A stretch of DNA of 40,058 nt from Reclinomonas americana ATCC 50394 (taxonomy: Eukaryota), in the NCBI GenBank assembly GCA_048213135.1, contig PS015426.1, positions 1 through 40,058 of the forward strand, written 5' to 3'. The notes under the pieces were generated by a model, which saw nothing but the letters and a program-made list of their open reading frames with translations, did not search any database and had not been told where the DNA came from. Both the position numbers and the translations under genes were made by a program. Below are positions 16,074 to 18,770 of the stretch, piece after piece; the stretch's first letter is position 1; the number at the start of each line of letters is the position of its first letter.

Positions 16074-16501
16074 TCTAACAGACGCGCTCTCTTGCTTGCT
16101 CTCTGTGTGTGTGTGCGGAGCACAGTCAGAGAGTGTGTCGTGCGACAGAGTGATGATACCACTACGCATGGATGAAACAGCCGTTGCACGCTCTCACTCA
16201 CACGCACGCACACAGGCACACACATTGTTCGCGCGTGTGTGTGTGTGTGTGTCGCTGTCTCACTCACCGATCACAGTGTACGTGTTGCGCTGAGAAGAAG
16301 AACAAACCAAAGTACTCTGTGTCTGCCTTGTGGTGCGTACGTGTGTGTATCTGTGCGGGGCACTAAACAGACAAAAAAACGCGTGCCTATGCACACAAAA
16401 GTGAATTTTGCCCCTTTTCTCGCGCGATACGAGAAAAACGTTTCAACGGTCACATTTTTCTGCTTGTATTGCCTCGTGCGTNNNNNNNNNNNNNNNNNNN
16501 N

Positions 16502-16990: not shown

Positions 16991-17296
16991 CAGGGAGAGA
17001 GGGAGCACTGAATGCATGTACGACTGCTAGGAGCATGCAAGTCGAGAAGGTGCATACAACGAGAGAGGAGAGACTTTGGGAACTCAGACAGAAGAAGAGA
17101 GGAACAAGGGAGTGAGAGCGCGCGCTTGTGCTCCCCAGTTTCCTGTCTCTTTGTCTTGCATGTCGTCGACCTTTCCGAGAGTGAGTTGGAAGGTGGCACA
17201 GAAGACAGAGAGAACTGTTGTTCGTAGCCTGCAGAAAGACGCATCTCATTCACCCCTTNNNNNNNNNNNNNNNNNNNNCCCCTTTGCCTTTTTCAG

Positions 17297-18770
17297 TGGC
17301 CACCGCCGTCACCCAAGTCGAGGAAGAACGACGCCTTCCGCTGGCACCACCGCGCGGCAAAGTCGGCCGCGGACCCGACATTCTCACGCAGTTCAGCTCT
17401 GAGATCACGGGCGGCATTGTGCGGCAGTCGGCCCTCAGCTACCTCGGCCCACACGAGTCGTTCACCACAGAGACACTACAGGCGGGTCTCCTCATTGTGG
17501 CACATCCGCGTCGCGATGTGCGGCGGCGCTTCATTGATCGCGTGTGTCAGGCGGCACTGGAGAAGAGTGCGCTGGTGTATGCGATTGCGCCGAGTGGAAG
17601 CGCGTCGGTGCGCACGCCGGGGGTGTACCAGCTGCGCACGCATCCGACGCTGAGCAGGCGCGCTATTCTCAGTGCGCTGCTGCGGCACGGAGCGCACTTG
17701 TTGGTGTTTGGCACGATTAGCAATCGCGAGGATATCATGCAGCTGACCGAGGCTGTGTACACGGTATGATGGGCAACTGAGCGAGAGAGAGAGAGAGAGA
17801 GAGGAGGGAGGGGAGGAGGAGGAGGAGGGAGGAGGGAGGGAAGGGGAAGAGGAGAAGAGAGAGACGGTGAATTAAGAGGAGAGAGAATGCTGTAGAAGTG
17901 GGCAGCAGTGGCGGCGAAGACGACTAGGAGATGACAGAGAGACAGACAGACAGACAGACGGACAGACAAAAACGACAGAGACAGAGAGACTGCGAGAGAG
18001 GGAGGCCTCTCTCTCTCACTCTCTGTGTCTGTCTGCCTCTCCCTCTCTCCTTCTCCTTCTCCTTCTCCTTCTCCCCCTCCGCACCTCTGTCCCTGTCCCT
18101 CGCTCCCTTTCTCTCTCTCTCTCTCTCTTCCCTCTTTTCTCTGTCTCCTTTTGTCCCTCTACATCTCTCTATCTCTCTCCGTGTATCTGCCTCTCTCCTC
18201 TCTTTCACTCGCTTTCTCTTTCACTCTCCGCTCTTCCTCTTCCTCTCTCCCTTTCTCTCTCCATTTGTCCCTGTCCCTCGCTCCCATTCTCTCTCTCTCC
18301 CTCCCCCTCTCCCTCCCCCTCCCCCTCCCCCTCTCCCTCTCCCCTCTCACCTCTTCCTCTCCCCTCTCCNNNNNNNNNNNNNNNNNNNNTCTCCACTTTG
18401 TCCCTCGTCCCTCCGCTCCCACTTCTCTCTCTCTCCCTCCCCCTCCTCCCTCCCCTCCCCCTCCCCCTCTCCCTCTCCCTCTCACCTCTTCCTCTCCCTC
18501 TCCCTCTCCCTCTCTCCCTCTCCCTCTCCCCTTCCCTTTCCCTTCACCCTCTCCCTCTCCCTCTCTCACCCCCTGTTCGCCTCGCAGGGCTACCACTGCA
18601 TTGCGGAAATGTATGGCGAGAATGCAAACGACGTGCTCTCACGACTGGAGGCCGTTGGTGTGGATGCCAGCACGCTGCCGCAGAATCTGCGCATTGTGGT
18701 GCCGGCCGAGGGCGCGGGCGCCACTGACGAGTCGTCTTCCTCATCCACGACCGCCACCACCACGACTTGA
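17297..18770 (+). CDS. GspE/PilB secretion-ATPase C-terminal-domain homologue with degenerate catalytic motifs (candidate mitochondrial T2SS GspE-like); 5' end not located
   Basis: Exons 17297-17763 and 18588-18770 give LSYLG...AGLLIVAHP...PGVYQL...ILSALLRHGAHLLVFGTISNRED...EAVYTGYHCIAEMYGENANDVLSRLEAVGVDASTLPQNLRIVV. This is colinear with the GspE/PilB consensus (GLILVTGP...PGINQ...LRSILRQDPDVIMVGEIRD..AALTGHLVLSTLH.NDA..AITRL.DMGV). Confidence 0.75.

What the first reader, a model, noticed from the sequence alone, without database searches (positions are those of the whole stretch)
17297..18770. Intron-containing GspE/PilB-type pseudo-ATPase: marker of a mitochondrial type II secretion-derived system
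Seen: a spliced nuclear gene aligns by eye along the whole C-terminal domain of bacterial T2SS/type IV pilus ATPases, but every catalytic motif is lost. Walker A GPTGSGKT becomes HPRRDVRR, Asp box EDPVE becomes APSGS, Walker B GEIRD becomes GTISN, and His box TGH..TLH becomes TGY..EMY. Known: T2SS-derived mitochondrial components with a split GspE and a divergent GspE-like paralogue are reported in heteroloboseans, jakobids, malawimonads and hemimastigotes. Inference: this is the inactive GspE-like subunit. That places the organism in, or extends the system beyond, those lineages. The N-terminus (possible targeting peptide) is hidden near the gap at 17259-17278.
Basis: partly seen in the sequence, partly recalled or inferred. 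Interest (0 to 1): 0.8.

Follow-up and report, generated by a model that had tools for sequence, protein, structure and literature searches.

The report
Known inactive GspE-like gene, Reclinomonas

Summary
Window 17297-18770 (+) carries two exons (17297-17763, 18588-18770) split by a GT..AG intron. The 215 residues they encode belong to a small eukaryote-only family, 59-70% identical to 18 homologues.

The protein is identical over 207 residues to the Reclinomonas americana GspEL in Supplementary Data 1 of Horvathova et al. 2021 (PMC8134430). Only 5 of the last 8 residues differ. The gene, its lost ATPase motifs and its link to the mitochondrial T2SS-derived system are therefore in print, and the organism is one of the jakobids already listed as Gsp-positive.

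Independent checks here agree:
- A family profile matches bacterial T2SSE ATPases (hhalign 98.7%, E 2.3e-16).
- All 17 non-family hits among 1.84 billion representatives are PF00437 proteins.
- An orthologue model superposes on PilB and GspE (Z 14.5 and 14.0).

The 5' exon is absent from the window, probably lost in the gap at 17259-17278. Novelty: already known. Interest: low.

The parts
17259..17278 (.). Assembly gap (20 N). It is the likely place of the missing 5' exon or exons, which encode about 52 residues.
   Evidence: N runs listed. The N-terminal part of the published protein was not found in any frame of the window. tblastn with homologues gives no upstream exon.
17280..17296 (+). 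Pyrimidine tract and AG acceptor at the end of the upstream intron.
   Evidence: The sequence CCCTTTGCCTTTTTCAG is read directly. The published protein continues upstream of this point.
17297..17763 (+). Exon A of GspEL. Residues ATAVTQ..EAVYT are P0001, translated from 17299.
   Evidence: Identical to the published R. americana GspEL.
17503..17526 (+). Walker A-equivalent HPRRDVRR. There is no Gly and no Lys. R71, R75 and F78 are invariant in 19 of 19 family members.
   Evidence: column counts. Placed by the strand-loop-helix order in the orthologue model and its superposition on GspE and PilB. Not placed by any confident sequence alignment.
17587..17601 (+). Asp box-equivalent APSGS, with the register uncertain by 2 residues. 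There is no acidic residue in 17578-17619.
17710..17724 (+). Walker B-equivalent GTISN. The catalytic Glu position holds Thr.
   Evidence: hhalign confident block and column counts (T in 12, E in 1 of 19).
17764..18587 (+). Spliceosomal intron, GT..AG, phase 0, rich in C and T. It holds the gap 18370-18389 and splits the His box after Thr.
   Evidence: A relative's gene call, P0025, reads through at the same point.
18588..18770 (+). Last exon (P0002, 60 residues, plus TGA at 18768-18770). It carries the His box-equivalent GY (18588-18593) and EMY (18606-18614).

Best explanation
Identity (shown). The locus is the nuclear GspEL gene of Reclinomonas americana or a very close strain. GspEL is a paralogue of the nucleotide-binding C-terminal domain of the secretion ATPase GspE.

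Fold and lost chemistry (shown). The protein keeps the GspE/PilB fold but has lost the residues that bind and hydrolyse ATP: the P-loop Gly and Lys, the Asp-box acids, the Walker B Glu and both His-box histidines.

Conservation (shown). The family is nevertheless under strong constraint, at 59-70% identity between this jakobid and the 18 homologues, which include heteroloboseans. The former P-loop itself is conserved in a new form.

Mechanism (inferred, following the authors' published hypothesis). GspEL is a non-catalytic structural or regulatory subunit of the GspE motor of the mitochondrial T2SS-derived system. It probably pairs with the N2E-like protein GspEN2B to make an inactive GspE-like unit that mixes with, or docks on, the active GspE hexamer. 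It retains the Arg that aligns with the Arg of the bacterial LRQDPD block.

Window (shown). The gene is incomplete here because the 5' exon fell into an assembly gap.
For: - Identity: P0001 and P0002 match the R. americana GspEL row of Supplementary Data 1 of PMC8134430 letter for letter over 207 residues.
- Family: 23 proteins at E <= 0.01 among 117 candidates. They include the N. gruberi protein P0016, whose C-terminal part equals the protein labelled GspEL in Supplementary Data 2.
- Spliced product against the HMM of 18 homologues: 311 bits.
- Homology to T2SSE: hhalign 98.7%, E 2.3e-16, 94 columns.
- Family profile against PDB sequences: PilF at E 0.009.
- Pfam: 18 of 19 alignment members match PF00437 at E <= 1, best 1.8e-8. 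P0026-P0029 score 26.5-31.1 bits against the cut-off of 24.9.
- Profile against 1.84 billion representatives: 31 hits at E <= 0.001. Fourteen are family members and 17 are longer proteins, and all 17 are strong PF00437 proteins.
- Fold: the orthologue model (pLDDT 75.8) gives Foldseek E 3e-7 to PilF. VIA gives Z 14.5, rmsd 3.0 over 144 residues to PilB 5tsh_D, and Z 14.0 to GspE 4pht_B. Of rows 1-34, 33 are secretion, pilus or archaellum ATPases and 1 (row 9) is an archaeal RuvB-like helicase. Other P-loop folds, such as thymidine kinase, first appear at Z 10.8.
- Motif loss and new conservation.
- Eukaryotic gene: two GT..AG intron boundaries and the same G+C as its surroundings.
- Published description and hypothesis: passages read.
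Against: - Exon A alone gives no T2SSE hit in Pfam (best hit Glyco_trans_1_3, E 0.14) and none in PDB sequences.
- The model of exon A alone is poor (pLDDT 67.4) and finds nothing by Foldseek (best E 0.17).
- Sequence homology to bacterial ATPases is significant only for the C-terminal half. The Walker A and Asp box equivalences rest on a predicted structure of an orthologue that is 63% identical, not on the window's own protein.
- No experiment shows that GspEL binds GspE or GspEN2B. The paper states that all other tested G. okellyi Gsp interactions were negative, and I did not check whether GspEL was among those tested.
- Localisation is unsettled: N. gruberi GspEL fell in the putative peroxisomal cluster, and no targeting signal is predicted in the R. 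americana row.
- The last 8 residues differ at 5 places from the published sequence, so this assembly is not the very sequence in the table.
Confidence: 0.9

Rival explanations
1. GspEL acts outside the mitochondrion, at or in peroxisomes, in a step downstream of the miT2SS. On this reading it is not a subunit of the matrix-side motor.
For: [quoted passage not shown] The R. americana GspEL row shows no predicted mitochondrial signal ('OTHER', 'no', 'cyto: 13', column headings not seen).
Against: The authors say the separation of peroxisomes and mitochondria may have been incomplete. The Andalucia godoyi row shows 'M' and 'mito: 16'. The window's C-terminus..TTATTTT, is not an SKL-type signal (the PTS1 rule is recalled). 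A protein that keeps the fold and subunit-interface block of GspE is most simply a partner of GspE.
Confidence: 0.2
2. The gene is a decaying pseudogene or an assembly artefact in this genome, since it has no start codon or 5' exon in the window.
For: The N-terminal 52 or so residues are absent from the window. Two N gaps lie in and next to the gene.
Against: Both exons are open. They are identical to the curated published protein over 207 residues and 59-70% identical to the 18 homologues, including heterolobosean ones, with 39 invariant columns. The splice sites are canonical. A 20-N gap directly upstream of the acceptor explains the missing exon.
Confidence: 0.03
3. It is still an NTPase that uses a non-canonical site.
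For: The former P-loop is strongly conserved in a new, Arg-rich form (R71, R75 and F78 invariant). That could bind an anion or nucleotide. One of the 19 family members keeps Glu at the Walker B position.
Against: There is no Gly or Lys in the P-loop stretch, no acids in the Asp box stretch, Thr in place of the Walker B Glu, and Tyr in place of both His. The authors reach the same conclusion of lost ATPase function.
Confidence: 0.05

Closest known systems
GspEL of the mitochondrial T2SS-derived system (Horvathova et al. 2021, Nat Commun 12:2947, PMC8134430)
   Same: It is the same protein. It is identical over 207 residues to the R. americana entry, has the same abrogated motifs, and is 62% identical over 189 residues to N. 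gruberi GspEL (P0016).
   Different: Five of the last 8 residues differ. The window lacks the 5' exon. Here the intron is mapped: it splits the His box and holds an assembly gap.
Bacterial GspE / PilB / PilF C-terminal ATPase domain (Pfam PF00437 T2SSE)
   Same: The fold is shared (Z 14.5 to PilB and 14.0 to GspE for the orthologue model). There is profile homology over the stretch from Walker B to the His box and beyond. The Arg of the LRQDPD block is kept.
   Different: Only the nucleotide-binding domain is present, with no N1E or N2E domains and no zinc-binding Cys cluster. [quoted passage not shown] The gene is eukaryotic, nuclear and has introns.
Eukaryotic GspE, the active paralogue in the same organisms
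   Same: Both derive from the C-terminal domain of bacterial GspE, and they occur in the same species.
   Different: The R. americana GspE row keeps GPTGSGKS and GELRN/TGH-type motifs (passage seen). GspEL does not.

Membership tests
GspEL (miT2SS GspE-like protein) | Sequence orthology to the published GspEL proteins | tested here: met
   Identical over 207 residues to the R. americana GspEL row. It is 62% identical over 189 residues to N. gruberi P0016 and scores 311 bits against the family HMM.
GspEL (miT2SS GspE-like protein) | Homologue of the nucleotide-binding domain of GspE with Walker A, Asp box and Walker B abrogated | tested here: met
   The definition was read.
GspEL (miT2SS GspE-like protein) | Occurs in an organism that also has GspD, GspE, GspF and GspG | not testable with these tools
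   No genome is held for this window. The paper names R. americana as having all four. None of the 52 long ORFs scanned, out of the 80 listed in the window, hits a Gsp family in Pfam.
GspEL (miT2SS GspE-like protein) | Mitochondrial localisation or targeting peptide | not testable with these tools
   The 5' exon is absent from the window. Published predictions for this protein are negative, and N. gruberi GspEL was in the peroxisomal cluster.
T2SSE secretion ATPases (PF00437) | Profile-level sequence homology | tested here: met
   hhalign 98.7%, E 2.3e-16 over 94 columns. 18 of 19 family members match PF00437 at E <= 1. Exon A of the window on its own does not, because the matching block spans the intron.
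T2SSE secretion ATPases (PF00437) | Fold of the C-terminal ATPase domain | tested here: met
   Tested on the orthologue P0011, which is 63% identical to the window's product: VIA Z 14.5, rmsd 3.0, 144 residues aligned. The window's exon A alone was inconclusive.
T2SSE secretion ATPases (PF00437) | Walker A GxxxxGK[ST] | tested here: not met
   The stretch LLIVAHPRRDVRRRF has no Gly or Lys.
T2SSE secretion ATPases (PF00437) | Asp box acidic residues, Walker B Glu, His box histidines | tested here: not met
   There is no Asp or Glu in AIAPSGSASVRTPG. GTISN stands for GEIRD, and TGY and EMY stand for TGH and xLH.

The most novel reading that the evidence does not exclude
GspEL may be a non-catalytic subunit that still supplies interface residues to neighbouring active GspE subunits in a mixed ring, as the alpha subunits do in F1-ATPase. 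The candidate residues are the retained Arg of the LRQDPD-equivalent block and the invariant TLSRR..LLRHGAH stretch. Its rebuilt, invariant Arg-rich ex-P-loop may have gained a new ligand. The shared intron inside the His box and the variable Ser/Thr tail would then be only strain-level detail.
Probability: 0.3. Interest if true: 0.5.

Novelty: already known. Interest (0 to 1): 0.15.

Why it matters
The miT2SS is a striking relic of the bacterial ancestry of mitochondria, and GspEL is one of its markers.

The gene, the species and the interpretation were all published in 2021, so nothing changes for the field. The practical value is small:
- This assembly lacks the 5' exon of the gene.
- The intron position, which splits the His box, is now mapped.
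- The C-terminal tail differs from the published one.

Tried and rejected
- Whole-genome search for GspD, GspF and GspG: no genome is held for the window.
- Pfam and PDB sequence searches with exon A alone gave nothing relevant.
- The structure of exon A alone was poor, and Foldseek found nothing at E <= 0.001.
- Forcing hhalign to extend over the N-terminal half (-mact 0.01 and -glob) gave two different alignments with zero confidence. I do not use them for Walker A or the Asp box.
- Search for the 5' exon used tblastn of 23 homologues against the window and scans of translated frames for ten short motifs of the published N-terminus: four in all six frames and six in the three + strand frames. 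Nothing was found upstream of the gene; the few 4-residue matches lie elsewhere and in unrelated context.
- RNA evidence: the look-up of sequencing runs listed 24 runs, none holding more than 0.09 of the sampled words. My query included the low-complexity intron, which probably drew these small shares. I did not lay reads, so splicing and the 5' end are not confirmed by transcripts here.
- Earlier findings of this scan: none.
- The PDF supplements of PMC8134430, including Supplementary Fig. 4F with the GspEL alignment, could not be read.

Full report
**What is in the sequence**

On the + strand an open frame begins at 17297, right after a pyrimidine tract and AG (CCCTTTGCCTTTTTCAG, 17280-17296). 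It runs to 17763 and is followed by GTATGA. A second open stretch starts after CTCGCAG at 18588 and ends with TGA at 18768-18770.

Joining 17763 to 18588 keeps the frame (phase 0). This gives 155 + 60 residues (P0001, P0002).

The intron (17764-18587) is rich in C and T. It holds a 20-N gap at 18370-18389, so its length of 824 bases is only that of the assembly.

A further 20-N gap at 17259-17278 lies just upstream of the first acceptor. The window has eight N runs in all.

**Is the splice real?**

tblastn of 23 homologous proteins against the window places them on the two exons without a break. For example, P0003 residues 57-184 fall on 17377-17763 and residues 185-225 on 18588-18710.

The spliced product, made inside a script, scores 311 bits (E 1.8e-97) as one stretch against an HMM of the 18 homologues. 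It is 59-70% identical to each of them.

A gene call from a relative (P0025, 84% identical over 17578-17766) reads through the intron at exactly the same point. The intron position is therefore shared.

I could not confirm splicing with RNA. No public run holds more than 0.09 of the sampled words, and I laid no reads.

**What it is**

A search of the paper library led to Horvathova et al. 2021 (PMC8134430). I read passages of the main text and parts of Supplementary Data 1-4.

Supplementary Data 1 has a block headed GspEL. Its Reclinomonas americana row (accession 'N.A.') prints a protein whose residues from ATAVTQ to DESSSS equal P0001 plus P0002 letter for letter, 207 residues in all. Of the last 8 residues, 5 differ.

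The row also shows about 52 further N-terminal residues. I could not find these in the window, either by tblastn with homologues or by ten short motifs in the translated frames. The 5' exon is therefore missing from this assembly, most simply in the gap at 17259-17278.

The paper says that partial genome assemblies of R. americana were used. It names R. americana as one of two jakobids with GspD, GspE, GspF and GspG.

It describes GspEL as a divergent homologue of the nucleotide-binding domain of GspE with Walker A, Asp box and Walker B abrogated. A 2023 review repeats this (PMC10128026, passages read).

**Independent tests of the homology**

Exon A alone finds nothing: no T2SSE in Pfam, no PDB sequence, a poor model (pLDDT 67.4) and no Foldseek match. 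The reason is that the block most like bacterial ATPases spans the intron.

With the family the picture is clear:
- The search for homologous proteins gave 23 proteins at E <= 0.01 among 117 candidates. They include N. gruberi (P0016) and Acrasis kona (P0011), and most carry a precomputed PF00437 hit.
- Scanned singly, 18 of the 19 members of alignment A1 match PF00437 at E <= 1, best 1.8e-8. The one miss is exon A.
- The A1 profile finds PilF in the PDB sequences at E 0.009, over the stretch from Walker B to the His box.
- Against 1.84 billion representatives the profile finds 31 proteins at E <= 0.001. Fourteen are family members or fragments, and 17 are longer proteins at 1.8e-5 to 9.6e-4.
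- All 17 of these are strong PF00437 proteins, with E from 1e-41 to 1e-229.
- Profile against profile (family versus ten of those bacterial ATPases), hhalign gives 98.7% probability and E 2.3e-16 over 94 columns.

**Fold**

I modelled the full-length orthologue P0011 with the family alignment, giving pLDDT 75.8. P0011 is 63% identical to the window's product.

Foldseek puts PilF, PilB, BfpD, FlaI, DotB and GspE on top, at E 3e-7 to 1e-6.

VIA-align gives Z 14.5, rmsd 3.0 over 144 residues to PilB 5tsh_D, and Z 14.0 to V. vulnificus GspE 4pht_B, covering model residues 20-187. Of rows 1-34, 33 are secretion, pilus or archaellum ATPases and one (row 9) is an archaeal RuvB-like helicase. Unrelated P-loop folds such as thymidine kinase begin at Z 10.8.

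**The motifs**

In the confident hhalign block, the bacterial DVIMVGEIRD aligns with HLLVFGTISN. TGH aligns with TGY, and the second His with the Tyr of EMY (read onto the window through alignment A1). The Arg of the bacterial LRQDPD block is kept (LLRHGAH).

For the N-terminal half no sequence alignment is reliable. In the model, however, the order strand, short loop, helix, strand, strand, helix, Walker B strand matches the canonical domain. The Asp-box register may be off by two residues.

Whatever the register, the P-loop stretch has no Gly or Lys and the Asp-box stretch no Asp or Glu. Across the 19 family members R71, R75 and F78 of the former P-loop are invariant, and the Walker B position holds Thr in 12 and Glu in only 1.

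The catalytic residues are thus replaced by a new, conserved set. This points to a retained non-enzymatic role rather than decay.

**How it most likely works**

Shown here: the identity of the gene, the fold class, the loss of catalytic residues and the strong conservation.

Inferred, following the authors: GspEL is a non-catalytic partner of the GspE motor of the mitochondrial T2SS-derived system. It perhaps pairs with GspEN2B into an inactive GspE-like unit that joins or regulates the GspE hexamer.

Against a simple mitochondrial picture, N. gruberi GspEL fell into the putative peroxisomal cluster in proteomics. The R. americana row also carries no predicted targeting signal (I did not see the column headings). 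I put the peroxisome-side reading at about 0.2.

**Surroundings**

Of the 80 stop-to-stop ORFs of 180 residues or more, I scanned 52 against Pfam. Two had hits: a TRM13 methyltransferase at 8956-9726 (+) and a protein-kinase fragment at 36172-36921 (-). None is a Gsp family. The G+C content of the gene matches that of its neighbours.

**Verdict**

The finding is a rediscovery of a published gene in a published species, so novelty is 'already known' and interest is low.

The PDF supplements of the paper, which hold the authors' GspEL alignment (Supplementary Fig. 4F), could not be read here.

Noticed in passing
window 18744-18770: The last 8 residues (STTATTTT) differ at 5 places from the tail of the published R. 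americana GspEL, while the 207 residues before are identical. This is probably a strain or assembly difference in a Ser/Thr-rich tail.
   Followed up: partly
P0025 (relative; matches window 17578-17766): A gene call from another source, 84% identical, reads through the intron at the same place after ..EAVYT. The intron inside the His box is therefore shared with a relative.
   Followed up: partly
window 8956-9726 (+): An open frame matches the TRM13 tRNA methyltransferase family (PF05206, E 1.4e-38).
   Followed up: no
window 36172-36921 (-): An open frame carries part of a protein kinase domain (PF00069, E 9.4e-17, profile positions 119-175 only). It is presumably one exon of a kinase gene.
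   Followed up: no
window, whole: The window has eight N runs (3546-3770, 5395-5502, 6172-6233, 11604-11623, 16482-16501, 17259-17278, 18370-18389, 34925-34944). Long GA- or CT-rich simple sequence lies between and within genes. The assembly is fragmentary where low complexity occurs.
   Followed up: no
P0011 and P0021 (family members): The Acrasis kona orthologue is named 'protein transport protein HofB' by its source, although it lacks the ATPase motifs. One of the 19 family members (P0021) keeps Glu at the Walker B position (FGEI).
   Followed up: no
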